Below are positions 19,414 through 60,487 of a stretch of DNA of 64,000 nt, one piece after another. The DNA comes from Chloroflexota bacterium (GTDB taxonomy: Bacteria; Chloroflexota; Dehalococcoidia; Dehalococcoidales; RBG-16-60-22), in assembly GCA_016190695.1 (NCBI GenBank), contig JACPQC010000015.1, positions 13,435 through 77,434 on the forward strand, given 5' to 3'. Position 1 is the stretch's first letter; each line of letters starts with the position of its first letter. The notes beneath the pieces are model-generated. The model saw nothing but the letters and a program-made list of their open reading frames with translations. It had not been told where the DNA came from and searched no databases. Both the position numbers and the translations under genes were made by a program.

Positions 19414-20967
19414 ATGCCGACGGTGCAACAGGTGTGGCGGCAGGCCCTGCCTGCTGAGACTGAGCTGGTGGCCGGCGAGTCCGGTCTCTACGAGGAAGTT
19501 AGCTGGGTGGTCTCCCTGAAACCCACCCCGCCCGGCTTCCAGAGCATACGGGGCCGTGAGTTCGCCCTGGTGGACGCGGGCGCGGCGGAGAAGCTGGGCG
19601 TTTCCCTCCCCGCGCTGGTCTCTTCCCTGGCCGAGCGGAAGGTGAGCGCCACCGCCATCCTGGGCGATATCGTTCCCGACCTCAAGGCGCAGGCAGACAG
19701 GGCGGATATGTGCCTGTTCCGCCTCCCCCGCGGGTGTAATATCCTCTCGCTCGAGGCGGATATGGCCCGGCTCATCAGCGAAGAGAGGTCCCACCTCTAC
19801 AACCGGGAATACGAGCTGAGCAACGCCTTGATGGATGTCGCCCTTTCCGGCAAAGGGACCGGGGTGATACTGGAAAGATTGCGCCGGCTGACCGGGCGGA
19901 GCATCATGCTCCTGGATGCGGCCTTTCAGCCCCGCTCCGATGCCCCACCGGAGGCGCTCAGCGAGGTCAGTAACGCTGCCAAACTTATTGTGGAGAGGTT
20001 GGAGCGCTCTTCGTCCACGCCCCAGGTGGCCGGACTGAGGCTCGGCCCGGAGCACGCCTGTTTTGCCGGCCTGCTGACCCTGGGGCGCGCCACCGGAGGC
20101 TACCTTGTGTTGCTGGGGACGGCCGGGGAGCTGGGCGGGGCGGACCGGCTGGCGGTCAAGGTGGGCACCCTGGCGCTGACGGTAGAGATGTCCCGGCGCC
20201 AGGCGGTGGAGGAGACCGAAGACCGCTTCCAGACCGAGATAATGGAAAGCCTGCTCGCCGGCGATTTCTCTTCATCGCAGGTCATGGCTGAGCGGGCCAG
20301 GCGGCTCGGCCTGGACTTCTCGGTGCCCTACGTAGCCCTGGCAGTGCAGTCGCCGGAGCCGCATAAGCTGGAAGACCTTGCCGGTAAAGCGGCCTCAACG
20401 CTGCGGACGGCGCGATGCCACCTCCACCAGGGGGCGCTGGTGGTGCTGCATCCCAGCCCTGATGCGACCGTATCCGGGATGCGCCATCTGGGCGCTGAGA
20501 TTGCCCGCCAGTTGTCCGCAGGTGACGGGCCGGTGTCCCTGGGGCTGGGGCGGCCCTATACCGGCGCGGAAGGGGTCCACATCTCCTTCCAGGAGGCGCT
20601 GCGGGCGCTCACCATGGGCCGGCAGCTCTTCGGGGACGGGGCGGTGGTCTACTTCGGAGACCTGGGCATCTACCGTCTCCTCTTTTCCTCGGAGAAGTCC
20701 GAGCTGAAGACCTTCTGCGAAGAGCACCTGGGCCAACTTGCCGAGTACGACCGGAAAAACGCCGGCGAGTTGCTGCGCACCCTGGAAGTCTTTCTGAAGT
20801 GCAACAACATCTCCGAGACCGCCCGCCGCCTCCACGTCCACCGCAACACGCTGCTGTACCGCCTCAACCGCATCCAGGAGATCTCCGCCATCGACCTGGA
20901 AGACGGCGAGACGCGCCTGGCTCTGCACCTGGCTCTGCGCGCCCTGCAGGTAATCCAGTCCGCCTGA
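19414..20967 (+). CDS. PucR-family transcriptional regulator
   Basis: C-terminal PucR HTH (ISETARRLHVHRNTLLYRLNRIQEI). The ATG immediately follows the GS-like stop. Confidence 0.8.
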   Translation: MPTVQQVWRQALPAETELVAGESGLYEEVSWVVSLKPTPPGFQSIRGREFALVDAGAAEKLGVSLPALVSSLAERKVSATAILGDIVPDLKAQADRADMCLFRLPRGCNILSLEADMARLISEERSHLYNREYELSNALMDVALSGKGTGVILERLRRLTGRSIMLLDAAFQPRSDAPPEALSEVSNAAKLIVERLERSSSTPQVAGLRLGPEHACFAGLLTLGRATGGYLVLLGTAGELGGADRLAVKVGTLALTVEMSRRQAVEETEDRFQTEIMESLLAGDFSSSQVMAERARRLGLDFSVPYVALAVQSPEPHKLEDLAGKAASTLRTARCHLHQGALVVLHPSPDATVSGMRHLGAEIARQLSAGDGPVSLGLGRPYTGAEGVHISFQEALRALTMGRQLFGDGAVVYFGDLGIYRLLFSSEKSELKTFCEEHLGQLAEYDRKNAGELLRTLEVFLKCNNISETARRLHVHRNTLLYRLNRIQEISAIDLEDGETRLALHLALRALQVIQSA

Positions 20968-21095
20968 TTTAGGCATTTTACACAAAATCGACCCTCCCTC
21001 TTTCTGTCATTCTATCCGTAGACCGCCCCCCTAACTTCCACTAGACTATTAGCAAGTGCTTTTTGTGCAAATAGTCCAGTCATCGGAGGGGAATA

Positions 21096-21236
21096 ATGTC
21101 AGTTGAAGTCATAATGGGGGCCGCGTCCTTCGTGGGGCTGTTTTTCGCCTGGGTGGTGCTGCCCAGCCAAATCCAGAAGCGGCATGATGGCAAAGATGTG
21201 AAGGCTCCCCCGGCGGAACCGGGGATCGAGTCATAG
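21096..21236 (+). CDS. 46-aa single-TM small protein upstream of amt (below the ORF-track cutoff)
   Basis: ATG preceded by GGAGGGG. MSVEVIMGAASFVGLFFAWVVLPSQIQKRHDGKDVKAPPAEPGIES is a hydrophobic helix with a charged tail. The stop lies 13 nt before the amt GTG, which has its own GGGAGAGGGG. Confidence 0.45.
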   Translation: MSVEVIMGAASFVGLFFAWVVLPSQIQKRHDGKDVKAPPAEPGIES

Positions 21237-21249
21237 GGAGAGGGGCAGC

Positions 21250-22752
21250 GTGAGCTTTTTATCGGTCTTGTTGTCGCGTGAACATATAGCCGGATTGCCC
21301 CGGAGGACGAGGCTGCTCTGGCGGGCGGGCATCATCCTCTGCCTGCTCCTCTTCCTGGGCGTAGCTTTTGTGGCCGCCCCGGCGTTAGTGCGCGCTGACC
21401 CTACCGGCAGCGATACGCTGGCCGCCGACCCCGGCGCGCCGGTCAATATCGCCTGGACGTTGATGGCCGGTTTCCTGGTGTGGTTCATGCAGTTGGGCTT
21501 CGCCTTCCTCGGCGCCGGCCTGATCCGCTCCAAGAACACGGTGAACTATTTCACCAAGAGCTTTATCGATTTCTGCATAGCATCGCTGGCGTTCTGGGCC
21601 TTCGGTTTCGCCATCATGTTCGGCGGCTCGAAGCTGTCGCCGGGCCTGGAGCAAGGCAACAGTTTCATCGGCTACTCCGGCTTTTTCCTGGGCGGGGCCA
21701 GCTATGACGTCACCACCGTCGCTGTCTGGTTCTTCCAGATGGTCTTTGCCGCCACTGCCTGCACCATCGTCGCCGGCGCGGTGGCGGAGCGGATGAAGAT
21801 CACCGCCTACCTGGGCTACAGCTTCATTATCAGCGCCATCATCTATCCCGTTTACGGCAAGTGGGTCTGGGGCGGCGGCTGGCTGAGCGAGTTGACCATC
21901 GGCGGGGCTACCGGCGTCAGGGACTTTGCCGGCTCCGGGGTGGTGCACATGGTGGGCGGGCTGGCGGCGCTGGTGGGGGCGGCAATGGTCGGCCCCAGGA
22001 TAGGCAGGTTCAACAGGGACGGCACCCCGAACATTTTGCGGGGACACAACCTGCCCTACGTGGTCATCGGCACCTTCATACTCTTCTTCGGCTGGTTCGG
22101 CTTTAACGCGGGCAGCACCATGGCCGCCACCGATTTGCGCATCTCCATCATCGCCGCCAACACCTTTCTGGCCGGGGCCACCGGCGCCATAATCGCCCTC
22201 TACTGGAACTTTGTCCGCACCGGCAGGACGGATGTGATTATGGCCTGCAACGGGGCGCTGGCCGGGCTGGTCGGCATTACCGCCGGGTGCGCCTTCGTGC
22301 CGCCCTGGGCCGCCGTGCTCATCGGGGCGATATCGGCGCCGGCGATGATGCTCACCGCCTGGTTCGTCGAGCGGCGGCTAAAGGTGGATGACGCTGTCGG
22401 CGCTGTCGCCGTCCATTTCGGCGCGGGAGTCTGGGGGCTGCTGGCCGTGGGCATCTTCGCCGATGGCACCTATCTCGGCGTGAAAGGACTTATCGCCGGG
22501 GAAGCGGGGCAGCTATTGCTCCAGGTGCTCAACATCGGCGTGCTCATTGCCTGGGTACTGCCCACCGCCTTCATCACCTTCTGGCTTATGGACAGGACCA
22601 TGGGACTGCGCGCCACCGCCGAGGAAGAACTGCTGGGCCTCGATGTCCCCGAGCATGGCATGGAGGCCTACCCCGGCCAAATGAGGCTTGAGCCTTCGCT
22701 GCGCCGGGCCATGCCGCTCACCGGTCCTGGAGAGGCCGGGCAGGTTAGTTGA
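21250..22752 (+). CDS. amt: ammonium transporter (Amt family)
   Basis: AWTLMAGFLVWFMQLGFAFLGAG, DFAGSGVVHMVGG, GFNAGS, AVHFGAGVWG motifs. Confidence 0.95.
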   Translation: MSFLSVLLSREHIAGLPRRTRLLWRAGIILCLLLFLGVAFVAAPALVRADPTGSDTLAADPGAPVNIAWTLMAGFLVWFMQLGFAFLGAGLIRSKNTVNYFTKSFIDFCIASLAFWAFGFAIMFGGSKLSPGLEQGNSFIGYSGFFLGGASYDVTTVAVWFFQMVFAATACTIVAGAVAERMKITAYLGYSFIISAIIYPVYGKWVWGGGWLSELTIGGATGVRDFAGSGVVHMVGGLAALVGAAMVGPRIGRFNRDGTPNILRGHNLPYVVIGTFILFFGWFGFNAGSTMAATDLRISIIAANTFLAGATGAIIALYWNFVRTGRTDVIMACNGALAGLVGITAGCAFVPPWAAVLIGAISAPAMMLTAWFVERRLKVDDAVGAVAVHFGAGVWGLLAVGIFADGTYLGVKGLIAGEAGQLLLQVLNIGVLIAWVLPTAFITFWLMDRTMGLRATAEEELLGLDVPEHGMEAYPGQMRLEPSLRRAMPLTGPGEAGQVS

Positions 22753-22781
22753 TAACGGTAAAGATACAAGGAGGAAAAAAT

Positions 22782-24236
22782 ATGGCGATTCAACCGGGAA
22801 TTCAGGGGGAGACCTTCAGGGACTACAGGGACTTGCTGGAGTGGGCCCAGGAGAAGGGCTGCCAGTTCGTGGACCTCAAGTTCGTAGACCTGCTCGGCCA
22901 GTGGCAGCATTTCTCCATATCAATGGCTGGCGTTGACGAAGACCTCTTCACCGAGGGCATCGGCTTTGACGGCTCTTCGATCAGGGGCTTCCAGAAAATA
23001 CACGAGAGCGACATGCTCCTGGTGCCTGACCTGAGCACCGCTATTCTTGACCCTGCCCTCGAAGTGCCCACCATAAGCATGGTCTGCGATATAAAAGACC
23101 CGATCACCGGCCAGAGCTACTCCCGCGATCCCCGGTGCGTGGCCAGGAAGGCCGAGGGATACCTGAAGACCACCGGCATAGCCGAGATGAGCTACTGGGG
23201 CCCGGAGCTGGAGTTCTTTATCTTCAACAGCATCCGGTTCGAACAGAACGGTCACGCCGGGCACTATGCCATCGACTCCGACGAGGGCATCTGGAACTCC
23301 GGCAACGGTCACGGCGCGCCTAACCTGGCCTACCGCCCCCGCCCCAAGGAGGGCTATTTCCCGGTGCCGCCCACAGACAAGCTCCAGGACCTCCGCTCCC
23401 GGATGGCCATGAAGATGATGGAGTCGGGCATCGACGTCGAGGTGCACCACCACGAGGTGGCCACCGGCGGACAGGTGGAGTTCGACATGCGCTTTGACAC
23501 CCTCACCCGCATGGCGGACAAGGTGATGTTGTACAAGTACATCGTTAAGAATATGGCCATCAAGCACGGCTTCACCGCCACCTTTATGCCCAAGCCGCTG
23601 TTCGGGGACAACGGCTCCGGAATGCACGTCCACCAGAGCCTGTGGAACGATTCCAGCAACGTATTTTACGATAGCAACGGCTACGGGCTGCTCAGCGCCG
23701 ACGCCCGCTACTACATCGGCGGACTGCTGGCCCACGCCCCGGCGTTGCTGGCCCTGTGCGCCCCCACCACCAACTCCTACCGGCGGCTGGTGCCCGGCTA
23801 CGAAGCCCCGATAAACCTGGTCTACTCCCAGCGCAACCGGAGCGCCTGTATCCGCATCCCGGTTTACTCCTCGAAGCCGAAGGCCAAGCGCATCGAGTTC
23901 CGCTGTCCCGACGCCACCGCCAACCCCTATCTGGCCTTTGCCGCCATGTTGATGGCCGGGCTGGACGGCATCAAGAACAAGATCGACCCCGGCGAGCCTA
24001 TGGACCGGGACGTCTACGAGCTTGGGCCTGAGGAGAAGGCCAGGATAAAGTCCACGCCTGGTTCCCTGGGGGAGGTGCTGGAAGCCCTGGAGCGTGACCA
24101 TGCTTTCCTGCTCGTGGGGGATGTCTTCACCCCGGACCTGATAGAGAACTGGATAAGCTACAAGAGAAAGCATGAACTGGAGCCGGTGGCGCTACGTCCC
24201 CATCCCTACGAGTTCTATCTCTACCATGACGTCTAG
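22782..24236 (+). CDS. glnA: glutamine synthetase type I
   Basis: FVDLKFVDLLGQW, HHHEVATGGQVEFD, GSGMHVHQSLW, NSYRRLVPGYEAP, RIEFRCPD. GGAGGAAAAAAT before the ATG at 22782. Confidence 0.95.
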   Translation: MAIQPGIQGETFRDYRDLLEWAQEKGCQFVDLKFVDLLGQWQHFSISMAGVDEDLFTEGIGFDGSSIRGFQKIHESDMLLVPDLSTAILDPALEVPTISMVCDIKDPITGQSYSRDPRCVARKAEGYLKTTGIAEMSYWGPELEFFIFNSIRFEQNGHAGHYAIDSDEGIWNSGNGHGAPNLAYRPRPKEGYFPVPPTDKLQDLRSRMAMKMMESGIDVEVHHHEVATGGQVEFDMRFDTLTRMADKVMLYKYIVKNMAIKHGFTATFMPKPLFGDNGSGMHVHQSLWNDSSNVFYDSNGYGLLSADARYYIGGLLAHAPALLALCAPTTNSYRRLVPGYEAPINLVYSQRNRSACIRIPVYSSKPKAKRIEFRCPDATANPYLAFAAMLMAGLDGIKNKIDPGEPMDRDVYELGPEEKARIKSTPGSLGEVLEALERDHAFLLVGDVFTPDLIENWISYKRKHELEPVALRPHPYEFYLYHDV

Positions 24237-31829: not shown

Positions 31830-32705
31830 ATGTTCAATCATCCTTTGGCAGAAATTTTTGGATTTCCCGCCAGAAATATCTCCGCCGAAGCGATGAGATG
31901 TCGTAAACTGCGACTCTGTCCATTCAATAACAAAGTCCCAAACTGCACAAAAGACAAAGCTGAGAATCCTCTTGGCGTATGCAGTATATTTAGTGAGAGG
32001 GGTACGGCAATCACATGCCCCGTACGTTTTCGACAAAATTGGCTAATAGCAGAGGATGCCGCCAATTTCTTCTTTGCGGCGGGGACTCATTGGACATCAC
32101 TTACCGAAGTGAGACTGAATGATAAGGAAGGGATCTCAGCCGGAAATATTGATGTGGTACTGGTTGCTTACGATTCCGAAGGCAAAGTGACTGACTTTGG
32201 CGCATTGGAAATTCAGGCAGTATATATATCTGGTAATGTGAGAAAGCCCTTCGAGCACTATATGGATGACCCTGAAAAAAATACGGAAATGGAATGGCGC
32301 GGAAAGCCCAATTACCCGCGCCCTGATTACTTGTCGTCGAGCAGGAAACGATTAGCACCTCAGTTGATGTATAAAGGCAGCATTTTGCATTCATGGAAGA
32401 AGAAGATTGCGGTTGCATTGGATAAGGAGTTTTTTGCAACGCTTCCTGATTTAGAGGAAACAGATAGCAAGCAGGCAGACATCGTGTGGATGGTCTACGA
32501 TCTTAAACTTAACAAAACAGCGAAGAAATACTCGCTGAGAAAAGATAGAAAAGTCTATACCAAGTTTGATGCATCATTAAATCGAATTGCGTGGCCCAAT
32601 ATTGGTTCCGTTAGCAATTTCATTGATAAACTTCAAGAGAGACTAAACGAGAAACTGGAGAATGGCCATAAGTTGCAAACCAGAACAATAGAGATGAGAG
32701 AATAG
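31830..32705 (+). CDS. NotI-family type II restriction endonuclease
   Basis: N-terminal LAEIFGF......CPF....C.K......GVCS....ITCP.RF is a Cys4 metal-site pattern like NotI. GALEIQAVY is equivalent to the NotI VLEIQTMD catalytic E-x-Q. AT-rich: 24 G+C in the 60-nt line at 32401. Confidence 0.75.
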   Translation: MFNHPLAEIFGFPARNISAEAMRCRKLRLCPFNNKVPNCTKDKAENPLGVCSIFSERGTAITCPVRFRQNWLIAEDAANFFFAAGTHWTSLTEVRLNDKEGISAGNIDVVLVAYDSEGKVTDFGALEIQAVYISGNVRKPFEHYMDDPEKNTEMEWRGKPNYPRPDYLSSSRKRLAPQLMYKGSILHSWKKKIAVALDKEFFATLPDLEETDSKQADIVWMVYDLKLNKTAKKYSLRKDRKVYTKFDASLNRIAWPNIGSVSNFIDKLQERLNEKLENGHKLQTRTIEMRE

Positions 32706-33584
32706 ATGCATCAACTCAGGCTGATAGAAAGCTATGATTCGGCGGTAGTGGTAAACGTGGCTTCTGTACCCCAGAGAAGCCCATTTCGCTATCCTGGCGG
32801 CAAAACATGGTTGATACCTCAAGTCAGGCGTTGGCTTACAAGTCAAAAACCAAAGCCCAACTTGTTGATTGAGCCATTTGCTGGAGGGGGAATTGTGGGC
32901 TTGACAGCTGCTTTCGAAGAACTAACGGATCGAGTATTACTCGTAGAACTGGACGAGCAGGTTGCCAGTGTTTGGGGTACTATCCTGGGTGACGAAGCTG
33001 AATGGCTTGCTAATAGGATTTTGACCTTCAAAATGTCACATGATGCTTTGGAGCATGAGCTTGGTAGGAGCAGCGGGGAGGTGCGAGAGATAGCATTTAG
33101 AACTCTGCTGCGCAACAGGACTAATCATGGTGGAATAATGGCGCCCGGGGCTGGGCTTATCAAAAACGGAGAGAGTGGCAAGGGAATAAGTTCCCGTTGG
33201 TATCCTGGAACGCTGGCTAAACGAATACGCGATATCAAGAGAATTAGCGCAAGGATTGAATTTATTAAGGGCAATGGTCTGGACGTGATTCGCGAACATA
33301 TGTGGGACCCTGGCACAACATTTTTCATTGATCCACCATACACTGCTGCTGGCAAGAAGGCGGGGAAGCGTTTGTATGCCTACAATGAAATTGATCACGA
33401 GAGGCTATTTAGTCTGGCGGAGTCGATTCAGGGCAAATTTTTGATGACCTATGACAATGCGGACGGAGTTCGTGATCTGGCCTTAAGACATGGTTTTCAG
33501 GTGGAGACAATAGCAATGAGTAATACGCATCATGCCAAGATGGAGGAATTACTAATAAGCAAAGACTTGGCATGGGTACGGTAA
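32706..33584 (+). CDS. D12-class (Dam-like) DNA methyltransferase, cognate to the NotI-family enzyme
   Basis: FRYPGGKTWL, IEPFAGGGIVGL, FFIDPPY. The ATG abuts the endonuclease stop. Confidence 0.85.
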   Translation: MHQLRLIESYDSAVVVNVASVPQRSPFRYPGGKTWLIPQVRRWLTSQKPKPNLLIEPFAGGGIVGLTAAFEELTDRVLLVELDEQVASVWGTILGDEAEWLANRILTFKMSHDALEHELGRSSGEVREIAFRTLLRNRTNHGGIMAPGAGLIKNGESGKGISSRWYPGTLAKRIRDIKRISARIEFIKGNGLDVIREHMWDPGTTFFIDPPYTAAGKKAGKRLYAYNEIDHERLFSLAESIQGKFLMTYDNADGVRDLALRHGFQVETIAMSNTHHAKMEELLISKDLAWVR

Positions 33585-33665: not shown

Positions 33666-35057
33666 CTAAGGCAACGCCAGCGGTACTCCCATGCCGGCAA
33701 GCTCCTTCTTGACCTTCAGGTAGATGCCCGCCCATTCTTCGCTTGGCCGCAGCGTGGCCAGGTCATAGCACTCATCAAAGCCTTTGCCGGTGTGGGGTTT
33801 ATACAGGTCGGCCTCGTATTTGGGTATGAGCGCATTCAGCAGGTCGTTGGCCTGGCGGCGGGTCAGGCCGGCGGCGCCTTTCAATACCTCGGCGCAAAAC
33901 TTGCACTCCAGCGGGCTGATGTGGTTGGCGTACTTCGTGCCCGAGGTCCTCGGCCCCAGGTAGCAGCTTGTGCCTGACGCCGAAAGATTTATCATGGACA
34001 CGGCGCACTCGTAGAGCAGCATCTCGGTGCAGGGACCGCCCAGTTGACCGGCCACTTCTATCCCCAGGAAGTGGGTGTTCCGGGTGAGGGCCTGGGTGGC
34101 CACGCTCTGCGCCCACTGCGCCTCCCGCCCGCCGTTGCCCAGGTAACGGGCGTCACAGATAAAGGCGTTCCAGAAATCGGTCTGGTGCAGGGCGAACTGG
34201 AGGTGAACGTCGGCGATATAGGATATGGCCGCCCCTTCCGGCCCGCCGACGAAGCCGCCGATGGTGCAGGGGAAGCCGCAGGCGGTCCTGGCGCCGCAGT
34301 TGCTGGCGTGAATGACTTTGTGGAGGACGTGAAAGCTGGTGGTGAGCTCCCCCGGAGACAGGATGACGGCGTAGTGGAGCTCGGGGTCGAAGCTGCCGGA
34401 GAGTCCGAAGCTGCCCAGTTGACCGAAGACGGTGGGGCTGGAGACGACGCCCTGCACCGGCATGCCGGGGCGTCCCGCCCGCCACAGCGCCTCCGAGGTA
34501 AGCCGCGCCTGGAAGCGGCCCACCGCCGTCTCGTAAGGGCTGCCCGCCAGCACCTGCCGCCCGAACATGGTGATGGGGGTGGCGTTGCGCAGGATGTCTA
34601 TCTCGCGGTGCTGGGCCACGCCCTGGTGCAAGGCTACGTACAGGTCCTCCCGGACCATCTGGCCCATCGGCGAGGCGCTCAACGGGCGGAGCGGGTCTTC
34701 CGGCCTGCGGTGTCTCATCACCACCCGGTCCCGTCCCTTGCCCAACTGGGCCTCGGCGGGGGCGTCCTTGACGGCGTCGGCCAGGTCTTCTTCGGTTATC
34801 TTTATGACCCTCTCCGTGTCCTGGCAAAGCTCGCCCATCTCCAGGGCCAGCTCCAGACCGGCCTGGTAAAAGCGGTCGGCCAGCTCATCGTCCCAGTTGA
34901 CCGGATTGTCCCGGCCGCAGGTCTTCTCCAGGCCGTACTTCTTCGCCTTCTGGGCGATCACCCTGGAAAGCTCGAAGCCCCATTCCTTGACCGTGGCCGG
35001 GCGGCCGGTGTGCGCCCGGTCCAGGATATCAAGCACATGTTCTATGGATGCGGTCAC
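33666..35057 (-). CDS. MtmB-family (monomethylamine methyltransferase-like) corrinoid methyltransferase lacking pyrrolysine (Gln202)
   Basis: Collinear with Methanosarcina MtmB as I recall it: YDRA..G, KYGL, F.AG.E.....G..C.DT.R..K.TE.., LG.GRD, AGRPGM.V-x-G, GPCTEM, GK.F.ECYD..T..P.EE. Continuous ORF with CAG at 34452-34454 where MtmB has UAG. GTG start with GGGAGG. Confidence 0.8.
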   Translation of the reverse strand: MTASIEHVLDILDRAHTGRPATVKEWGFELSRVIAQKAKKYGLEKTCGRDNPVNWDDELADRFYQAGLELALEMGELCQDTERVIKITEEDLADAVKDAPAEAQLGKGRDRVVMRHRRPEDPLRPLSASPMGQMVREDLYVALHQGVAQHREIDILRNATPITMFGRQVLAGSPYETAVGRFQARLTSEALWRAGRPGMPVQGVVSSPTVFGQLGSFGLSGSFDPELHYAVILSPGELTTSFHVLHKVIHASNCGARTACGFPCTIGGFVGGPEGAAISYIADVHLQFALHQTDFWNAFICDARYLGNGGREAQWAQSVATQALTRNTHFLGIEVAGQLGGPCTEMLLYECAVSMINLSASGTSCYLGPRTSGTKYANHISPLECKFCAEVLKGAAGLTRRQANDLLNALIPKYEADLYKPHTGKGFDECYDLATLRPSEEWAGIYLKVKKELAGMGVPLALP

Positions 35058-35077
35058 CTGTCATACCTCCCTTGTGC

Positions 35078-35782
35078 TTACTGCTCGACGACCAGGGGCT
35101 GGGGCAGCGGAGGGGCTGTCCCGCCGCCCACCAGTTTCTTCATAAGCCGACCGGCGCCGATGGCCGTCCTGGCATAGCCGTCAGCCCCTATGTCCGCCGC
35201 CCACTCCGGTGATACCGGGGCGCCGCCCACGACCACGTAGTACTTCTCCCTCAGTCCCCGGTCTTTGAGGTAGTCTATGACCTGCTTCTGGTAGTTGGCC
35301 GAATAGGTGAGCAGAGCGGACATGGCGATCACCCTGGCCTTGACCTCTTCCGCCTTTTCGATGAAACGCTTGACCGGCACATCGGTGCCGATATCGCAGA
35401 CGTCGAAGCCGGTCACGGAGAGCATGCTGGCCACCAGGTTCTTGCCGATGTCGTGGATATCTCCGGAGACGGTGCCGATGACCACCGTTCCTGATGAAAT
35501 TGACTGCATCTGCTCCGGCTTGACGTGAGGCAGGAACACACCCAGGCAGGCCTTCATGGCGTCCCCGCCCCGGATGAGGTCGGGCAGGAAGGCCTCCAGC
35601 CGCTGGTACCGTTCCCCGATGATGTCCAGGCCTTTCACCGCTCCCTGGGTGATAGCCTCCAGAGGGTCAATGCCGGCGGCGAGCACCGCCCGGGCTGTCT
35701 CCTTTACCGTCTCTTCATCGCCATCGGCAATGGCCGTGGCCAAACGCCCGATCAGCTCTGCTTTGCTCACTTCTGTCTCCAA
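35078..35782 (-). CDS. cobalamin-binding corrinoid protein (MtmC/MtbC-like)
   Basis: B12-binding_2 cap helix bundle plus a Rossmann domain with DIHDIGKN (DxHxxG), SALLT and GGA motifs. Confidence 0.9.
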   Translation of the reverse strand: METEVSKAELIGRLATAIADGDEETVKETARAVLAAGIDPLEAITQGAVKGLDIIGERYQRLEAFLPDLIRGGDAMKACLGVFLPHVKPEQMQSISSGTVVIGTVSGDIHDIGKNLVASMLSVTGFDVCDIGTDVPVKRFIEKAEEVKARVIAMSALLTYSANYQKQVIDYLKDRGLREKYYVVVGGAPVSPEWAADIGADGYARTAIGAGRLMKKLVGGGTAPPLPQPLVVEQ

Positions 35783-35929
35783 TCCTCAATTGATTTTATG
35801 ACCGGCGGCAGCCCCCGCCTGACCGGTGACATCCTGAAGACGGCCGCAGCAGGCCGGACTGAGACAATATATCGCCAATCAGGTTTGAATGTCAATGTTT
35901 CCATGCCATGGGGAGATTGAAGGGAAACC

Positions 35930-36065
35930 CAACGAAAGACCAAAATCCCTCTCCTGTCTCCCTTTGCCAAAGGGGGGGACGCATTATCCGACTCTTTCAC
36001 AATGAGAACGGACGACCTCCCCCTTTCGTAAAGGGGGATTGAGGGGGATTTCAGTAATCTCCCGC
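35930..36065. repeat. repeat family 1-related hairpin modules, copy d (module order differs)
   Basis: Contains aaaatccctctcctgtctccctttgccaaaggggg and cctccccctttcgtaaagggggattgagggggattt. Lies 5' of the corrinoid gene. Confidence 0.65.
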
Positions 36066-36136
36066 CGCTTAAAGTAAGGCGTGGTAGCCGGTTTTCCGGC
36101 ACCTCCGTGTTTCACCGGCTACCACGAGTCCACCGG

Positions 36137-42198: not shown

Positions 42199-42606
42199 AT
42201 GGCAGTACAGGTAAAACAGTTCAGCCAGGTATTCCAGACAGCAGACTGGAAGACCGAGAAGCATGTCCCGGTCATCGAATGCCCGGAGCGGGTCAAGGCC
42301 GGCGAAATGTTCCGGGTCAATGTCAGCATTGGCAAGGAGATATCTCATCCCAACACCACTGAGCATCACATCCGGTGGATCGCGGTCTACTTTCAGCCCG
42401 AAGGGGACAAGTTCGCCCATCAGGTAGGGGACTTTCAGTTCTCGGCGCATGGAGAAAGCACCGAAGGGCCAAACACGGGCCCGGTCTACACCCACCATGA
42501 GGTGACGCTGTGCATGAAGCTGAACAAACCTGGAATGCTTTATGCGTCCTCGTACTGCAACATCCACGGACTCTGGCAGTCGGGTAAAGAAATAGTGGTC
42601 GGCTGA
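42199..42606 (+). CDS. superoxide reductase (1Fe-SOR / neelaredoxin type)
   Basis: EKHVPVI, HPNTTEHHIRWI, YCNIHGLW ligand pattern. No N-terminal desulforedoxin Cys motif. Confidence 0.85.
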   Translation: MAVQVKQFSQVFQTADWKTEKHVPVIECPERVKAGEMFRVNVSIGKEISHPNTTEHHIRWIAVYFQPEGDKFAHQVGDFQFSAHGESTEGPNTGPVYTHHEVTLCMKLNKPGMLYASSYCNIHGLWQSGKEIVVG

Positions 42607-42609
42607 GTC

Positions 42610-43437
42610 ATGTCATTGATGATAATAGCTAACAACATAAACGCCAGGAACCCGGAGGTAGGGCATTGGTTCCATGACCTCCTGGCCGGGGGCCCCACCG
42701 GTGAGCCGGCGGCGAAGTTGAAGGCGCTGGCCAGGCAGTGCGTCAGCGCCGGGGCCGATGTCCTGGAAATCAATCTCCAGCAGCACGATGACCGCCCCCC
42801 GGTGATGGAAGCCGCGGTCAGAATGGTCCAGGACGCCGCCGGCTGCCAGCTATGTCTCAGCACGAACAACGCCGCCACGCTGGAGGCGGGCCTGCGCGCC
42901 TGCGACCGGGCGCCCATGATAAACTACCTGTCACTGGATGAGGTCCGGCTCAAGGAGATGCTGCCGCTGGCGGCGAATTACAAGGCTGAGGTGGTGCTCC
43001 TGGTCAGTGACCCGGCCCGCCCCACCGATGCCCGTGACATGCTGCACAAGGCGGCGGTACTGGAGGGGGCGGCCAACGAGATGGGCATTCCCGATGAGCG
43101 CATAATCATCGATCCCGGCCTGATCCACGTGACCCATGTCCTGGGACAGCGCCACTTGCTCGAGATCAGGGAGTTCCTCAAGGCGATGCCGGACGTACTT
43201 GACCCCAGGTTGAGAAGCACCTGCTGGTTGAACAACGCCTCGGCAGGGGCAGCGCCCAGGCTGCGCTCGCTCATAGATACCACGGTGCTGGCCACCCTCT
43301 CTATCCTGGGCCTGTCCGGCGCTTTTATGGACGTGCTCAGCATGGAGCATATGCGGATGGTGCGCCTGCTGCGGATGCTCGATAATGAGCGAGTCTACTC
43401 CGATGGCGAGATAGACCTGGCCCTGGCGCGCCGGTAA
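42610..43437 (+). CDS. pterin-binding methyltransferase (MeTr/AcsE/MtgA-like methyl-THF:corrinoid methyltransferase)
   Basis: Collinear with Moorella MeTr as recalled: IIANNIN (IIGERIN), LCLSTNN..TLEAGL..C....MINY, IDPGL, WLNNAS (GLSNVS). Confidence 0.75.
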   Translation: MSLMIIANNINARNPEVGHWFHDLLAGGPTGEPAAKLKALARQCVSAGADVLEINLQQHDDRPPVMEAAVRMVQDAAGCQLCLSTNNAATLEAGLRACDRAPMINYLSLDEVRLKEMLPLAANYKAEVVLLVSDPARPTDARDMLHKAAVLEGAANEMGIPDERIIIDPGLIHVTHVLGQRHLLEIREFLKAMPDVLDPRLRSTCWLNNASAGAAPRLRSLIDTTVLATLSILGLSGAFMDVLSMEHMRMVRLLRMLDNERVYSDGEIDLALARR

Positions 43438-43471
43438 CGATTTCCATCTCAAACCAGGAGGATAATGGTCC

Positions 43472-43744
43472 ATGGCGTATTACATCACCGACGAATGCAT
43501 TAGCTGCGGGGCCTGCGAACCGGAGTGTCCCAATGTGGCCATATCCGAAGGGGAGACTATCTACATCATAAACCCGGACAGATGTACCGAGTGCGTAGGC
43601 TCTTTTGAATCGTCACGCTGCGCCGCCGTCTGCCCGGTAGACGCCTGTCACCCTGACCCCAACTACCCTGAGACCAGGGAAGAGCTTCTGGCGAAGTGGC
43701 GCGGCCTGCATCCCGGCGAAGAGCCGGTCGCGGGGACGTATTGA
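43472..43744 (+). CDS. YfhL-like 2x[4Fe-4S] ferredoxin
   Basis: YITDECISCGACEPECP ... CTECVG...CAAVCPVDAC. Confidence 0.85.
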   Translation: MAYYITDECISCGACEPECPNVAISEGETIYIINPDRCTECVGSFESSRCAAVCPVDACHPDPNYPETREELLAKWRGLHPGEEPVAGTY

Positions 43745-48789: not shown

Positions 48790-49890
48790 CTACTTCTTCT
48801 CCAGCAGCGCCCGGGCCTTTGTAGCTACCGCGCCGCCGCGCTCTATCTGCGCCGCCCATTCAGCCTCGTAAGCCATATCGGTGAAGGCCTTGGCTTCTCC
48901 CGCGGAGAAACTGATGAGCTGGGTCTTTCCGGCCAGCATCTTCTTCTGGTTATCCACCAGGTCAGCGCCGTAGAGCGGCGGGACTTCCTTCATGACCTCG
49001 GCGTGGGCCTGTTTCATGACGTTCTTCAGCCGGTCAGGGAGGTTGGCCCAGGCATCCGGGTTCATGATGAACGAGTTGTTGGCCTGGAACCACCAGTGCT
49101 CGATGAGGTAAGTGGACAGCTCCTGCAGCTTCAGTGAGGCATGAACATTGGTGCTGCTGGTATAGCCATCGACCAGCTTGCTGTCCAGGGACAGGTAAGT
49201 CTCAGGGGTGGGGATGATCACCGGAATCGCCCCCAGCGCCTTTATGAACGAGTTGGAATGGGTGCCGGAAGCCCCGATCTTCAGCCCTGTCATGTCTTTG
49301 GGGCTGGAAACGCTCTTGGTGAGCACGAAGCTGAAGATAGGCCGGTCGCTGGTCGAGCCTCGTCCCAGGTAGAATAGGCCAGCCTTGGCGTGCTCCTCTA
49401 CCAGCAGGTCATGGAAACCGGCGGCTCGCTCCTCGGCATCGGTAAGCCGGGACAGGGCGATGGTGTTGATGATGGGGACGAGATTGCCGTAGGAGCCGGC
49501 GAAGACATGGGCCATTTCGAGCACGCCCTTCCTCACTGCCGTCGCCTGGTCAGGGACCGGGATGACCTCCGGGCCTCCCAGTATCTTTATGGTAAGCTCA
49601 CCGTTGGTCATGGCGTTGACCTTGTCCCGGAGCATCCACAGGGCCAGGTTCGACTGTGACAGCACGGGCAAGGTAGTGGTCGCCCTCAGCACCACCGGCT
49701 GGGTCTTTGGCGCTGGCGCCGGCTTGGGCGCTGGAGCGGGTGCCGGGGCCGGCTTGGGAGCGGGCGCCGGGGCCGGCTTGGGAGCCGGGGCGGGTGCAGG
49801 CTGCGGCGCTGGCGCGGGAGCGGTCTGTCCGCAGGCTATGCCGGCCAGCAGGGATAACACTGCCAGGGCAAGAACAATCTTCTTTTTCAT
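48790..49890 (-). CDS. TRAP-transporter DctP-family substrate-binding lipoprotein (no dctQM nearby)
   Basis: Lipobox LLAGIAC, ~40-aa (A/K/Q)P repeat linker, then a DctP-like fold. Confidence 0.75.
   Translation of the reverse strand: MKKKIVLALAVLSLLAGIACGQTAPAPAPQPAPAPAPKPAPAPAPKPAPAPAPAPKPAPAPKTQPVVLRATTTLPVLSQSNLALWMLRDKVNAMTNGELTIKILGGPEVIPVPDQATAVRKGVLEMAHVFAGSYGNLVPIINTIALSRLTDAEERAAGFHDLLVEEHAKAGLFYLGRGSTSDRPIFSFVLTKSVSSPKDMTGLKIGASGTHSNSFIKALGAIPVIIPTPETYLSLDSKLVDGYTSSTNVHASLKLQELSTYLIEHWWFQANNSFIMNPDAWANLPDRLKNVMKQAHAEVMKEVPPLYGADLVDNQKKMLAGKTQLISFSAGEAKAFTDMAYEAEWAAQIERGGAVATKARALLEKK
49705..49821. repeat. imperfect tandem repeat encoding the Pro-Ala linker of the DctP-like protein
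   Basis: Reiterated ggcgccggggccggcttgggagc units encode APAPAPKPAPAPAPKP... Confidence 0.7.
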
Positions 49891-49991
49891 TGCGGCCTCC
49901 TTTATGTACTAAAGCTGCTTCTCTCCAAGAGAAGATAACTATCTGAAAGGAGAGACGGGCATCCCTCCTGTACCCCCCCTTGAATACCGGC

Positions 49992-51401
49992 CTAAATCTT
50001 TATGTAGTCGCTCAGGTTGACCTTGTCCAGGTCGTCGTAGCGGCACGGGCCGAGGTCGCGCAGCACTTCAATGCGGCCTTTCTTGTCCCCGCCCAGGGGC
50101 AGGGTGGCATCGATGCCCACCTTGGTTATCAGGTTGGGAGGGGTGACCATCGGGTCGAGGGACTGCCCGGCCATTTCCGAGGTGATAATGTAGTCCTCGC
50201 CTCTGGCGCGGAAAGTGGTGGCCCATTCTACATCCAGCGCGTTGAGAACATCAATATCCTCGTCCACCACTGTTACCCTCTTCAAAGAGCCGTGGGCCAG
50301 GATGGAATGGATTACCTGCTTGGCCTGGCCGGGGTGCGTCTTCTTGATGGATATGACCATGCCCTGGCCACAGGCGCCCAGCGGGGAGTTCACCCCCTTT
50401 ATATTCTCCTCCGGGACGGTGAGGCAGATATAGGCGTAGGCGTCTGCCTCCTTGTTGAGGGTGATCATTATCTGGTGCTCTGATGGCGATACCGAGGTGC
50501 CCATGGCGTGATAGATGTAGTTCTTGCGGTGGGTCACCGCGGTCACCTGCATCAGGGGAGAGCGGCGACGGATGCCGTAGTACCCGGTGAACTCGGCGAA
50601 GGGGGCTTCATCGCAATAGGTGCCCGGGCCGACATAGCCGTCCTCGTCACCAGGCATGACAAACCCCTCGATTACCAGCTCCGAGGTGGCCGGCACGTCC
50701 AGGTCTACCGTCTCGCATTTGACCACTTCCACCGGTGCGCCCCTCACCCCGCCGGCGAAGGCGATCTCATCCATATCATAAGGTATCTTGCACGAGCCGC
50801 AGAGCAGCACCGCCGGGTCCGCCCCCACCGCCACCACTATGGGGCAGGGCTGGCCCCGCTCCAGGTGTTTCCTTATTATTACCCTGAGGTTCCCCAGCGC
50901 ATTAATCCACAGGCCCAGCTTGTCCCGGTCAAGCACCTCCATGCGGTGGATGGAGTTGTTCCTGACACGGCTGTCCGGGTCTTGGGCGATGACGTTGGTG
51001 GCGCTGATGAAATAGCCGCTGTCTTTCACCTGGTGCCACAGGGCTGGTACGCGGTTGAGATCAATGTCCTTGCCGGTCATAATGACATCTTTGCACGGGC
51101 CGGTCCTGACAGTGACCGGGTCGATGGGGTGCTCCCGGCCCTTGATCATCTTCCTGAAGGCTTCCCGCTTGGTGCTCTCCACCACCAGGGCGTTCCGCTC
51201 CAGCGTGCCGAAAAGCCCGGTGATCACCGGCGTATCAAAGCCCTTTACATTCTCAAAGAGGATGGCCGGACCGCCGGACTTGGTCGCCTTGTCGGTCACC
51301 TTGGCGATCTCTATCTTCCGGTCTACTTCCTTGCTGCAGACCTCAAACTCCCCTCTCTGCTTCAATAGCTCCATGAACTCCCGCATATCCTGGTATGGCA
51401 A
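49992..51401 (-). CDS. UbiD-family (prFMN-dependent) decarboxylase
   Basis: PYQDMREFMELLKQRGE...PAILFENVKG...; 469 aa, typical UbiD N-terminus and length. Confidence 0.9.
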   Translation of the reverse strand: MPYQDMREFMELLKQRGEFEVCSKEVDRKIEIAKVTDKATKSGGPAILFENVKGFDTPVITGLFGTLERNALVVESTKREAFRKMIKGREHPIDPVTVRTGPCKDVIMTGKDIDLNRVPALWHQVKDSGYFISATNVIAQDPDSRVRNNSIHRMEVLDRDKLGLWINALGNLRVIIRKHLERGQPCPIVVAVGADPAVLLCGSCKIPYDMDEIAFAGGVRGAPVEVVKCETVDLDVPATSELVIEGFVMPGDEDGYVGPGTYCDEAPFAEFTGYYGIRRRSPLMQVTAVTHRKNYIYHAMGTSVSPSEHQIMITLNKEADAYAYICLTVPEENIKGVNSPLGACGQGMVISIKKTHPGQAKQVIHSILAHGSLKRVTVVDEDIDVLNALDVEWATTFRARGEDYIITSEMAGQSLDPMVTPPNLITKVGIDATLPLGGDKKGRIEVLRDLGPCRYDDLDKVNLSDYIKI

Positions 51402-60442: not shown

Positions 60443-60487
60443 AAGGCAGATGGGTCGGAAAATCCAAATAAGCATAAGAAAAGAACT

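What the first reader, a model, noticed from the sequence alone, without database searches (positions are those of the whole stretch)
33666..35782. Pyrrolysine-free MtmB homologue (Gln202, CAG in place of UAG) in an operon with a corrinoid protein: methyltransferase system of unknown substrate
The 463-aa ORF is collinear with methanogen monomethylamine methyltransferase MtmB over its whole length. Blocks recalled from Methanosarcina MtmB: YDRA.(V/T)G, KYGL, DT.R(I/V).K.TE(D/E), LG.GRD, AGRPGM.V-X-G, GPCTEM, GK.F.ECYD. Residue 202 is the pyrrolysine position in MtmB as I recall it (memory only). Here it is Gln, encoded by CAG (34452-34454, minus strand), one transition away from TAG. Pyrrolysine is considered essential for methylamine activation, so a Gln variant should act on something else. 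Non-Pyl members of the unrelated MttB family turned out to be quaternary-amine (for example glycine betaine) methyltransferases. I am not aware of an assigned function for non-Pyl MtmB homologues. The gene is translationally linked (20-nt gap, GGGAGG) to a DxHxxG corrinoid protein. A MeTr/AcsE-like pterin methyltransferase plus a ferredoxin lie at 42610-43744, which would complete a substrate -> Co -> THF route. No RamA-type activase is in the window.
Basis: partly seen in the sequence, partly recalled or inferred. Interest (0 to 1): 0.72.

Follow-up and report, generated by a model that had tools for sequence, protein, structure and literature searches.

The report
Pyrrolysine-free MtmB-like methyltransferase, substrate unknown
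A Chloroflexota bacterium carries a two-gene pair (a vitamin-B12-binding protein plus a pyrrolysine-free relative of the methanogen enzyme MtmB) that belongs to a large, already recognised family of such enzymes; what it takes its methyl group from is still unknown, so it is a fairly ordinary member of a poorly understood family.

Summary
ORF 33666-35057(-) is a full-length MtmB-superfamily protein (Pfam 1.7e-71; AF2 model TM 0.93 to 1L2Q). Gln202 (CAG, 34452-34454) aligns exactly with pyrrolysine. A DxHxxG corrinoid protein lies 20 nt upstream.

The Gln is not informative. That column is hypervariable in the 120 closest homologues, and the nearest relatives have Leu or Met. CAG is simply the gene's usual Gln codon. 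The protein is about 27% identical to the Pyl clade and lies far from it (bootstrap 98-100).

Of the columns conserved in 78 true TAG-containing mtmB genes, 87 of 153 are changed here. These include the polar and acidic positions E205, H228, E229, E259, Q333 and Y335.

Non-Pyl MtmB homologues have been known for years. A first function was published in 2026 (MtqB, tetramethylammonium/choline; PMC13044021), so "no assigned function" is out of date. MtqB is reported to branch near the Pyl clade, which this protein does not. I could not obtain the MtqB sequence to test this directly.

The nearest relatives sit in DctPQM-corrinoid-MT1 operons, which points to a carboxylate-bearing methyl donor. 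The window copy has no adjacent transporter, activase or MT2.

Best reading: the MT1/corrinoid half of a corrinoid methyl-transfer system acting on something other than methylamine. It is a new member of a known kind, of modest interest.

The parts
33666..35057 (-). MT1: non-pyrrolysine MtmB-superfamily methyltransferase, 463 aa, GTG start, TAG stop. GenBank MBI2860354.1, annotated as 'monomethylamine:corrinoid methyltransferase'.
   Evidence: Pfam PF05369 1.7e-71, full length. PDB 1L2Q 2e-53. AF2 pLDDT 93.1 with Foldseek TM 0.93 and rmsd 1.7 to 1L2Q. Accession.
34452..34454 (-). CAG codon for Gln202, the residue that aligns with pyrrolysine 202 of M. barkeri MtmB.
   Evidence: The column is hypervariable in homologues. 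It is TAG in 78 of 78 Pyl-clade genes.
35058..35077 (-). 20-nt intergenic spacer carrying the ribosome-binding site AAGGGAGG, between the corrinoid stop and the MT1 start.
   Evidence: Sequence read.
35078..35770 (-). Cognate corrinoid protein, 230 aa from the GTG at 35770 (the longest ORF reaches 35782). It has a B12-binding_2 cap, a B12-binding Rossmann domain and a DIHDIG (DxHxxG) motif.
   Evidence: Pfam hits 6.3e-24 and 5.1e-16. Best NCBIfam models MtgC and pyl_corrinoid are both below cutoff. Best PDB match is MttC 7XCN_M at 7e-54. It is 62-69% identical to the corrinoid proteins next to the nearest MT1 relatives.
35866..35895 (-). Promoter-like site TTGACA-18-TATATT (11 of 12 matches), about 95 nt upstream of the corrinoid start.
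   Evidence: One such site is expected by chance in the scanned region, so this rests on position only.
42610..43437 (+). Candidate MT2 (methylcorrinoid:tetrahydrofolate methyltransferase): an AcsE/MeTr-like pterin-binding protein. Its link to the system is inferred only.
   Evidence: Pterin_bind 9.1e-12. PRK07535 scores 116 bits against a cutoff of 259. Best PDB match is MeTr 2E7F/1F6Y at 6e-23. It is not syntenic and only 24-33% identical to MT2s beside homologous systems.
43472..43744 (+). YfhL-type 2x[4Fe-4S] ferredoxin downstream of the MeTr-like gene. Any link to the system is speculative.
   Evidence: NF033683 scores 111 bits against a cutoff of 86.

Best explanation
The two genes encode the substrate-activating half of a corrinoid-dependent methyl-transfer system in an anaerobic Chloroflexota bacterium.

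Proposed mechanism: the MtmB-fold TIM-barrel protein (MT1) binds a small methylated compound in the centre of the barrel. It presents the methyl group to the Co(I) corrinoid of the His-on corrinoid protein encoded 20 nt upstream, producing methyl-Co(III). A pterin-binding MT2 then passes the methyl group to tetrahydrofolate. That MT2 may be the AcsE-like protein at 42610-43437, or one encoded elsewhere. A RACo/RamA-type activase encoded outside the window re-reduces Co(II).

What is shown: fold, family, the pairing with the corrinoid protein, and the loss of the pyrrolysine site. What is inferred: MT2, the activase and the methyl donor.

The methyl donor is not monomethylamine. The pyrrolysine and the polar and acidic residues conserved around it in true MtmBs are replaced by small, hydrophobic, aromatic and Cys residues: Q202, V205, A230, V231, C260, G261, F262, C264, W296, F299, V335, A336, G337.

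My best guess, at about 35-40%, is an N-methylated compound that needs no pyrrolysine adduct. That would be a quaternary or otherwise activated amine, probably carrying a carboxylate. The reasons are that the only characterised non-Pyl MtmB (MtqB) uses tetramethylammonium and choline, and that the nearest relatives are co-transcribed with TRAP carboxylate importers.

The protein belongs to a large, already recognised radiation of non-Pyl MtmB homologues. Gln202 is one of many residues tolerated at that position, not a footprint of pyrrolysine.
For: Family and fold: Pfam MtmB 1.7e-71 over the full length. PDB 1L2Q 2e-53. AF2 model pLDDT 93.1 with TM 0.93 to 1L2Q.

Pairing with the corrinoid protein: a corrinoid-protein gene lies next to the MT1 gene in 49 of 70 dereplicated homologous loci, many of them short contigs. 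The window corrinoid protein is 62-69% identical to those partners.

Not a Pyl enzyme:
- All 78 Pyl-clade genes found in genomes carry TAG at this column.
- 87 of the 153 columns that are at least 95% conserved in those genes differ in the window protein. They include E205V, H228A, E229V, E259G, Q260F, Q333V, Y334A and Y335G.
- TAG is the gene's own stop codon and the commonest stop in the window, 14 of 33 genes.
- NJ bootstrap supports the Pyl-proximal clade at 98/100 and the window subclade at 100/100.

Family size: 851, 469 and 179 cluster representatives at E <= 1e-3, 1e-10 and 1e-30 among 1.84 billion representatives.

Precedent: MtqB, a non-Pyl MtmB homologue, methylates cob(I)alamin from choline and tetramethylammonium, with only trace activity on monomethylamine (PMC13044021).

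Gene neighbourhoods:
- DctP-DctQ-DctM-corrinoid-MT1 in four loci at 57-66% identity (L003, L010, L102, L104), plus a DctM a few genes upstream in L105 at 56% identity, and a Liv-type ABC importer in L005.
- Pterin_bind MT2 in 6 loci and RACo activase in 4 loci of the wider clade.
Against: - No transporter, MT2 or activase lies next to the window copy. It is flanked by a restriction-modification island and a small secreted protein.
- The predicted pocket loops differ even from the 63-67% identical relatives: PVQGVVSS versus SNLAIASS, TACGFPCTIGGFVGG versus MTNGYSSMIGGYPGR, and IEVAGQLGG versus VDVQNQLAG. The substrate inferred from their TRAP context may therefore not carry over to this protein.
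- Neighbourhoods across the wider clade are heterogeneous. They include amidohydrolases, aldehyde:ferredoxin oxidoreductase, xanthine-dehydrogenase-type subunits, UbiD, GcvH and GlcD-like genes. No single substrate class follows from them.
- O-methyl or S-methyl donors are not excluded.
- I had no access to model coordinates, so 'pocket' residues are inferred from alignment and from predicted strand ends, not from measured distances.
- No biochemical data exist for any member of this clade.
Confidence: 0.72

Rival explanations
1. It is an orthologue in function of MtqB. It demethylates tetramethylammonium and/or choline and passes the methyl group to the adjacent corrinoid protein.
For: MtqB is the only characterised non-Pyl MtmB homologue (PMC13044021). 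That paper describes its ligand site as rich in sulfur-containing and aromatic residues. The window protein has Cys260, Cys264, Phe262, Trp296 and Phe299 in the loops that replace the Pyl-site residues.
Against: The paper places the MtqB clade next to the Pyl-MtmB clade. The window protein is about 27% identical to that region of the tree and is separated from it with 98-100% bootstrap support. Its nearest relatives are linked to TRAP importers, which take organic anions and not the cations tetramethylammonium or choline. There is no direct test, because I could not obtain the MtqB sequence. A check using its published length and mass (459 aa, 49,382.1 Da) matched none of the about 500 proteins collected.
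Confidence: 0.12
2. It demethylates a donor that is not nitrogen-linked. Examples are a methoxylated aromatic or aliphatic acid, or a methylthio or sulfonium compound such as methylmercaptopropionate or DMSP. These would be taken up as carboxylates.
For: TRAP and TctABC importers, UbiD decarboxylases, aldehyde:ferredoxin oxidoreductase and GlcD/GlcF-like oxidases recur near clade members. The window itself has an orphan DctP gene and a UbiD gene at 48790-51401. The pocket has lost its acidic residues.
Against: All members of the MtmB superfamily characterised so far act on N-methyl compounds (Pyl-MtmB and MtqB). Known O-demethylase and haloalkane MT1s belong to the UroD superfamily instead (PMC13222342). 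None of the neighbours is diagnostic. The window's DctP is unrelated to the DctPs of the relatives' operons, with only one weak hit at 27% identity.
Confidence: 0.2
3. The GenBank annotation is right. It is a monomethylamine:corrinoid methyltransferase that works without pyrrolysine.
For: PGAP names it so. MAG surveys count such genes in Chloroflexota as monomethylamine use (PMC11264602). MtqB shows a small amount of monomethylamine demethylation (PMC13044021).
Against: All 78 genuine mtmB genes, from both archaea and bacteria, keep TAG and a conserved polar and acidic environment. That environment is lost in the window protein. No NCBIfam model matches the protein at all.
Confidence: 0.04
4. 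It is a recently decayed pyrrolysine gene (TAG to CAG), left behind after loss of the Pyl machinery and possibly without function.
For: CAG is one transition from TAG. Such variation does exist elsewhere: one 90%-identity cluster in the Pyl clade (P0121) holds both TAG-split fragments of 202 and 244 aa and full-length forms with Gln at this position.
Against: The window protein is not in that clade. The column is hypervariable among its relatives. 66 of the 153 Pyl-clade-conserved columns are retained, the ORF is intact and the model has pLDDT 93. It keeps a tightly coupled corrinoid partner.
Confidence: 0.02

Closest known systems
MtqB/MtqC of Methanococcoides methylutens Q3c, the tetramethylammonium/choline:corrinoid methyltransferase system (PMC13044021, 2026)
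   Same: It is a non-pyrrolysine member of the MtmB superfamily (PF05369), encoded next to its own corrinoid protein. It uses a methyl donor other than monomethylamine. The paper describes its ligand site as rich in aromatic and sulfur-containing residues.
   Different: MtqB comes from a methanogen and hands the methyl group on to coenzyme M through MtbA/MtqA. It is reported to branch beside the Pyl-MtmB clade. The window protein is bacterial, about 27% identical to that part of the tree, and in a separate clade with 100% bootstrap support. Its relatives are linked to anion importers. No direct sequence comparison was possible.
Pyrrolysine-containing monomethylamine methyltransferase MtmB (M. 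barkeri, PDB 1L2Q/1NTH)
   Same: Same fold (TM 0.93, rmsd 1.7 Å) and collinear over the whole length. 66 of the 153 clade-conserved columns are kept, including AGRPGM, GG.GG and GPCTEM. It has the same gene pairing with a DxHxxG corrinoid protein.
   Different: There is no UAG/pyrrolysine. E205, H228, E229, E259, Q260, Q333, Y334 and Y335, among others, are replaced. Sequence identity in the structural alignment is 26%. No pyl genes are in the window, and TAG is its commonest stop codon.
Non-Pyl MttB-superfamily quaternary-amine methyltransferases (MtgB for glycine betaine, and others) with MtgC and MtgA
   Same: The same evolutionary logic applies: a pyrrolysine enzyme family whose many non-Pyl members use other methyl donors. 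The three-component architecture ending at tetrahydrofolate in bacteria is the same. The window corrinoid protein scores best against NCBIfam's MtgC model and against the solved MttC chain.
   Different: This is a different MT1 family (PF06253). The structural match to the model is only TM about 0.5. The MtgC model score of 219 bits is below its cutoff of 310.
Uncharacterised non-Pyl MtmB-superfamily protein Ga0180325_111810 of 'Ca. Formimonas warabiya' DCMF (PMC9768040)
   Same: It is a bacterial non-Pyl MtmB homologue of unknown substrate, about 30% identical to MtmB.
   Different: It was the protein most increased in dichloromethane-grown cells.

Membership tests
MtmB superfamily (Pfam PF05369) | Full-length match to the family profile above the gathering score | tested here: met
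   241.9 bits against a cutoff of 25; residues 8-457 match profile positions 3-449 of 450.
MtmB superfamily (Pfam PF05369) | MtmB-type TIM-barrel fold | tested here: met
   AF2 model pLDDT 93.1. Foldseek to 1L2Q/1NTH gives E 2.6e-42, TM 0.93 and rmsd 1.6-1.7.
MtmB superfamily (Pfam PF05369) | Encoded next to a cognate DxHxxG corrinoid protein | tested here: met
   20-nt gap; DIHDIG motif; B12-binding and B12-binding_2 domains. The same pairing occurs in 49 of 70 homologous loci.
Pyrrolysine-dependent monomethylamine methyltransferase MtmB (EC 2.1.1.248) | In-frame UAG (pyrrolysine) at position 202 | tested here: not met
   CAG (Gln) at 34452-34454. TAG occurs in 78 of 78 reference genes.
Pyrrolysine-dependent monomethylamine methyltransferase MtmB (EC 2.1.1.248) | Residues invariant in the Pyl clade around the pyrrolysine (E205, H228, E229, E259, Q333, Y335) | tested here: not met
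   All are replaced (V, A, V, G, V, G). 87 of the 153 clade-conserved columns differ. That these residues line the active site is my recollection of Hao et al. 2002, not something I tested.
Pyrrolysine-dependent monomethylamine methyltransferase MtmB (EC 2.1.1.248) | Groups with the Pyl clade in a phylogeny | tested here: not met
   NJ tree with bootstrap: Pyl-proximal clade 98/100 excluding the window protein; 27% mean identity.
Pyrrolysine-dependent monomethylamine methyltransferase MtmB (EC 2.1.1.248) | pylTSBCD present in the genome | not testable with these tools
   Only 64 kb is available. None was seen among the ORFs scanned. TAG is the commonest stop codon, 14 of 33 genes.
MtqB (tetramethylammonium/choline:corrinoid methyltransferase) | Non-Pyl MtmB homologue with an adjacent corrinoid protein | tested here: met
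MtqB (tetramethylammonium/choline:corrinoid methyltransferase) | Membership of the MtqB clade, which is reported to branch next to the Pyl-MtmBs | tested here: inconclusive
   The window protein lies far from the Pyl-proximal clade. The MtqB sequence itself could not be retrieved. The mass and length check found no match.
MtqB (tetramethylammonium/choline:corrinoid methyltransferase) | Conserved Met/Cys/aromatic ligand-site signature, and activity with tetramethylammonium or choline | not testable with these tools
   The signature is given only as a figure in PMC13044021.
Three-component corrinoid methyltransferase system (MT1, corrinoid protein, MT2, plus RACo/RamA activase) | MT2 (pterin-binding or UroD-type) functionally linked to the pair | tested here: inconclusive
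   An AcsE-like protein lies 7.5 kb away in another operon. It is only 24-33% identical to MT2s beside relatives. Pterin_bind MT2 genes are adjacent in 6 homologous loci.
Three-component corrinoid methyltransferase system (MT1, corrinoid protein, MT2, plus RACo/RamA activase) | Reductive activase gene nearby | tested here: not met
   No RACo domain in any window ORF scanned. RACo genes are present in 4 of 70 homologous loci. One may lie elsewhere in the genome.

The most novel reading that the evidence does not exclude
This clade of pyrrolysine-free MtmB homologues, found in Chloroflexota, Binatia, Desulfobacterota-type bacteria and Bathyarchaeia, may demethylate a substrate class not yet known for corrinoid methyltransferases. 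One candidate is N-methyl amino acids such as sarcosine, taken up by TRAP or Liv-type importers. Another, in sister subclades, is methylated N-heterocycles processed alongside amidohydrolases and xanthine-dehydrogenase-type enzymes. Either would give anaerobes a Pyl-independent route from N-methyl compounds to methyl-tetrahydrofolate. The window enzyme has a divergent predicted pocket and could have yet another specificity.
Probability: 0.35. Interest if true: 0.6.

Novelty: new member of a known kind. Interest (0 to 1): 0.33.

Why it matters
Genes like this one are routinely counted as "monomethylamine use" in metagenome surveys, and this protein is annotated that way in GenBank. The evidence here says that label is almost certainly wrong for the whole clade.

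The family is large: 179 to 469 clusters at 50% identity. Its substrate is known for a single member. The gene neighbourhoods compiled here give concrete substrate panels to test:
- TRAP importer operons in the nearest subclade.
- Purine or N-heterocycle catabolic clusters in others.
- A creatinase-like neighbour in a Pyl-proximal clade.

Finding the substrates would refine carbon and nitrogen budgets for abundant sediment Chloroflexota and Bathyarchaeia. It would also inform how pyrrolysine enzymes and their Pyl-free relatives evolved. The window gene itself adds one lineage-specific variant, not a new principle.

Tried and rejected
1. Retrieving the MtqB sequence (ACT9XH_RS04775) to place it on the tree. 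This failed.
- The paper's supplements hold no sequences.
- A protein search with M. barkeri MtmB, and another with a Pyl-proximal profile, returned no Methanococcoides entry.
- The genome scan returned only TAG-containing mtmB genes plus one Hadarchaeota homologue.
- A check against the published length and mass (459 aa, 49,382.1 Da) matched nothing.
- The candidates P0151, P0130 and P0136 turned out not to be Methanococcoides loci.

2. The idea that CAG marks a recent TAG-to-CAG change. Rejected.

3. CdmB, the chloromethane MT1, as a second characterised relative. Rejected, because it belongs to the UroD superfamily.

4. A cobalamin riboswitch or other known RNA upstream of the operon. Rfam found nothing in the window at gathering thresholds.

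5. Inferring the TRAP ligand from solved DctP structures. The best match is only E 2e-21 and carries no ligand information.

6. Linking the window's orphan DctP (48790-49890), UbiD or PucR-like genes to the system. They are not orthologous to those beside relatives; identities are 24-32%.

7. Small ORFs downstream of MT1 in relatives. They are not conserved and are absent from the window.

8. An open-text citation for the MtmB active-site residues. None was found. Those residue roles rest on my memory of Hao et al. 2002.
Full report
**What is there.** The minus strand carries a 463-aa ORF (33666-35057, GTG start, TAG stop). Twenty nucleotides upstream, a corrinoid-protein ORF ends at 35078. 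The corrinoid ORF most likely starts at the GTG at 35770, giving 230 aa as called on an identical public contig.

The large protein matches Pfam MtmB (PF05369) end to end at 1.7e-71. It matches M. barkeri MtmB (1L2Q/1NTH) at 2e-53 over residues 9-458. An AlphaFold2 model built on 31 homologues has mean pLDDT 93.1. It superposes on 1L2Q with TM 0.93 and rmsd 1.7 Å; the next best structures, MttB and MtgB, reach only TM about 0.5.

Gln202 aligns with the pyrrolysine 'X' of AGRPGMGVXG in both the HMMER and MAFFT alignments. Its codon is CAG at 34452-34454. The corrinoid protein has B12-binding_2 and B12-binding domains and a DIHDIG motif. Its best solved relative is MttC at 7e-54.

**The glutamine carries no special meaning.** Among the 120 nearest homologues the pyrrolysine column is one of the most variable: T32, R13, L12, V9, I9, D8, Q6, E6, G6 and others. 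The closest relatives, at 63-67% identity, have Leu or Met. CAG is used for 16 of the gene's 18 Gln codons. TAG is the gene's own stop codon and the commonest stop among 33 window genes, at 14.

I built a reference set of genuine pyrrolysine genes from a scan of species-representative genomes. Of the 79 best loci, 78 carry TAG at this column; they come from Methanosarcinales, Methanomassiliicoccales, Desulfosporosinus, Sporomusa, Acetobacterium and others.

Of the 153 columns that are at least 95% conserved in those 78 proteins, the window protein keeps 66. These are scaffold motifs such as AGR.G, GG.GG, GPCTEM and ECYD. It changes 87, including Pyl202Q, E205V, H228A, E229V, E259G, Q260F, Q333V, Y334A, Y335G, D217F and H294W. 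Several of these I recall as pyrrolysine-site residues from the 2002 structure paper. That is memory only, because no open text confirmed it. In the model these changed segments fall at or just after predicted barrel strands (201-202, 229-233, 257-266, 295-302, 332-335). That is where TIM-barrel active sites lie. I could not measure distances, because model coordinates are not exposed.

**Where it sits in the family.** An exhaustive HMMER search of 1.84 billion cluster representatives found 851, 469 and 179 representatives at E <= 1e-3, 1e-10 and 1e-30. The superfamily is therefore large and diverse.

In a neighbour-joining tree of 162 sequences (161 database proteins plus M. barkeri MtmB), M. 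barkeri MtmB groups with its close Pyl-free relatives at 38-57% identity. The window protein lies elsewhere, together with P0002, P0004, P0005, P0011 and P0014. Bootstrapping a 65-taxon subset gave 98/100 for the Pyl-proximal clade and 100/100 for the window subclade. Mean identity of the window protein to the Pyl-proximal clade was 27%.

The protein has no close orthologue in the 5.8-billion-cluster database. The best hit other than itself is 67% identical. It is already in GenBank as MBI2860354.1, 'monomethylamine:corrinoid methyltransferase [Chloroflexi bacterium]'. No NCBIfam model matches it at all.

**What is already known.** Kashyap et al. (Front Microbiol 2026, PMC13044021) showed that MtqB of Methanococcoides methylutens Q3c is a non-Pyl MtmB homologue. 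It methylates cob(I)alamin from choline and tetramethylammonium, with only residual activity on monomethylamine. They call this the first function shown for a non-Pyl MtmB. They also state that such homologues have been known for many years, and that the rest of their 1,061-sequence tree is of unknown function. Their MtqB clade branches near the Pyl-MtmBs.

An uncharacterised non-Pyl MtmB-superfamily protein was the protein most increased in dichloromethane-grown 'Ca. Formimonas warabiya' (PMC9768040). MAG surveys count mtmB in Chloroflexota as monomethylamine use (PMC11264602). CdmB, the recently described chloromethane MT1, is a UroD-superfamily protein and not a relative.

'Unknown substrate for this clade' still appears true. 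I could not test this directly, because every route to the MtqB sequence failed.

**Gene neighbourhoods.** I looked up annotated public contigs encoding seven homologues of the window clade. I also scanned metagenome contigs, obtaining 79 loci. Pooled with seven of the looked-up loci and the window itself, this gave 85 loci, or 70 after dereplication at 95% identity. Only about 30 of these have more than 3 kb on a given side. Neighbour proteins were clustered, and cluster representatives were annotated with Pfam.

Counts of loci with each neighbour type:
- corrinoid protein: 49
- amidohydrolase: 12
- aldehyde:ferredoxin oxidoreductase: 9
- a further MtmB-like paralogue: 8
- xanthine-dehydrogenase-type FAD subunit: 8
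- ABC ATPase: 7
- Pterin_bind MT2: 6
- BPD_transp_2 permease: 6
- DctM 5, DctP 4, DctQ 4
- Bmp-type binding protein: 5
- RACo activase: 4
- UbiD: 4
- GcvH: 4
- GlcD-like oxidase: 4
- MttB-family protein: 4
- PucR regulator: 3

The pattern follows the phylogeny:
- The subclade nearest the window protein (57-66% identity) has DctP-DctQ-DctM-corrinoid-MT1 in L003, L010, L102 and L104. L105 (56% identity) has a DctM a few genes upstream, and L005 has a Liv-type ABC importer.
- Members at 51-52% identity sit between an aldehyde oxidoreductase and GcvH/GlcD/GlcF-like genes.
- Members at 39-45% identity sit among molybdenum hydroxylase, amidohydrolase, Bmp, PucR and UbiD genes, which suggests N-heterocycle catabolism.

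TRAP and TctABC importers take organic anions. The nearest subclade therefore probably acts on a methylated carboxylate or sulfonate.

The window copy has none of these neighbours. Downstream lies a low-GC NotI-like endonuclease plus D12 methylase island (31830-33584). Upstream lies a small secreted protein.

The window protein's predicted pocket loops also differ from those of its TRAP-linked relatives. Transferring their substrate to it is not safe.

**The rest of the proposed pathway.** The protein at 42610-43437 is AcsE/MeTr-like. Its best PDB match is 2E7F/1F6Y at 6e-23, and NCBIfam PRK07535 scores 116 bits against a cutoff of 259. It could serve as MT2.

However, it lies 7.5 kb away on the other strand. 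It starts 4 nt after a desulfoferrodoxin-type superoxide reductase gene and is followed by a YfhL ferredoxin gene. A response regulator, a glycosyltransferase, a nucleotidyltransferase and a DJ-1/PfpI gene lie in between. It is only 24-33% identical to the MT2 genes beside homologous systems, whereas the corrinoid proteins are 62-69% identical.

No RACo/RamA activase was found in the window. Rfam found no riboswitch or other family. A good promoter-like site, TTGACA-18-TATATT, lies about 95 nt upstream of the corrinoid start. One such site is expected by chance in the scanned region.

**Conclusion.**
- Shown: a Pyl-free, structurally intact MtmB-fold MT1 paired with a cognate corrinoid protein. 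It belongs to a large, old Pyl-free radiation. It has lost the pyrrolysine environment, so it is very unlikely to be a monomethylamine methyltransferase.
- Inferred: it methylates Co(I) of its partner from another methyl donor, and the methyl group ends on tetrahydrofolate.
- Best guess for the donor (35-40%): an N-methyl compound that needs no pyrrolysine adduct, probably carrying a carboxylate.
- Rivals: a tetramethylammonium/choline enzyme like MtqB (about 12%), an O- or S-methyl donor (about 20%), and true monomethylamine activity or a decayed gene (a few per cent together).

This is a new member of a known but poorly characterised kind. It is useful as a correction to the annotation and as a source of testable substrate hypotheses, but it would not surprise a specialist.

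Noticed in passing
window 31830-33584 (+); also 6260-7408 (-): A NotI-family restriction endonuclease gene and a D12-class N6-adenine DNA methylase gene lie directly downstream of the MT1 gene, in convergent orientation. They form a low-GC island (0.48 against about 0.60). A second D12 methylase gene sits in another low-GC stretch at 6-8 kb.
   Followed up: partly
window 60299-62854 (+): An 851-aa ORF has no Pfam match at E <= 1e-4. It lies in a low-GC (0.47-0.53) stretch at the end of the window.
   Followed up: no
window 42199-43744 (+): An unusual three-gene arrangement: a desulfoferrodoxin-type superoxide reductase gene, then 4 nt later an AcsE/MeTr-like pterin-binding protein gene, then a YfhL 2x[4Fe-4S] ferredoxin gene. 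No CFeSP or ACS genes are nearby.
   Followed up: partly
window 18046-24236 (+): A nitrogen-assimilation cluster: glutamine synthetase, a PucR-type regulator, an Amt ammonium transporter and a second glutamine synthetase. PucR regulators also occur beside some MtmB-like genes elsewhere, but the window's regulator is only 24-28% identical to them.
   Followed up: partly
window 35957-36038 and 36080-36126: There are two C/G-rich hairpin-forming repeats (TCTCCCTTTGCCAAAGGGGG and CCCCCTTTCGTAAAGGGGGA) and a perfect 13-nt inverted repeat. They lie between the corrinoid gene's promoter-like site and the upstream gene. No Rfam family matches them.
   Followed up: no
proteins P0121, P0256-P0269: One 90%-identity cluster inside the true Pyl-MtmB clade holds two kinds of sequence. 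Some are fragments of 202 and 244 aa, split at the TAG. Others are full-length forms of 463-470 aa with Gln at the pyrrolysine position. This is a genuine TAG/CAG polymorphism (or a sequencing variant), in a different lineage from the window gene.
   Followed up: no
L176 6105-16135; L177 7361-17386: Pyl-free MtmB paralogues, with Met or Thr at the pyrrolysine position, each have their own corrinoid protein. Each sits next to an Amt-family transporter gene and directly upstream of a second corrinoid gene, a TAG-split mtmB and pylS-pylB-pylC-pylD.
   Followed up: no
L012 8085-13162: A Pyl-proximal, Pyl-free MtmB homologue (P0151, Glu at the pyrrolysine position) follows a Creatinase_N/Peptidase_M24 gene and a corrinoid-protein gene. 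It precedes an APC-family amino-acid permease gene. This layout would fit creatine or sarcosine use.
   Followed up: no
L119 4123-8319; L125; L161; L117; L129: Some metagenome contigs carry MtmB-like genes as multiple paralogues. Three are in tandem on L119, four are scattered on L125 and three on L161. This suggests diversification of substrates within single genomes.
   Followed up: no
proteins P0125-P0127, P0131, P0134: Full-length Methanomassiliicoccaceae-type MtmB sequences, 47-48% identical to M. barkeri MtmB where tabulated, show Lys at the pyrrolysine position. This may be a real AAG codon or an artefact of how pyrrolysine was written in the source records. I did not check.
   Followed up: no
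window 51909-55596 (-): Phosphoketolase and acetate kinase genes lie next to each other. Together with the superoxide reductase gene, they suggest a fermentative, oxygen-sensitive lifestyle.
   Followed up: no
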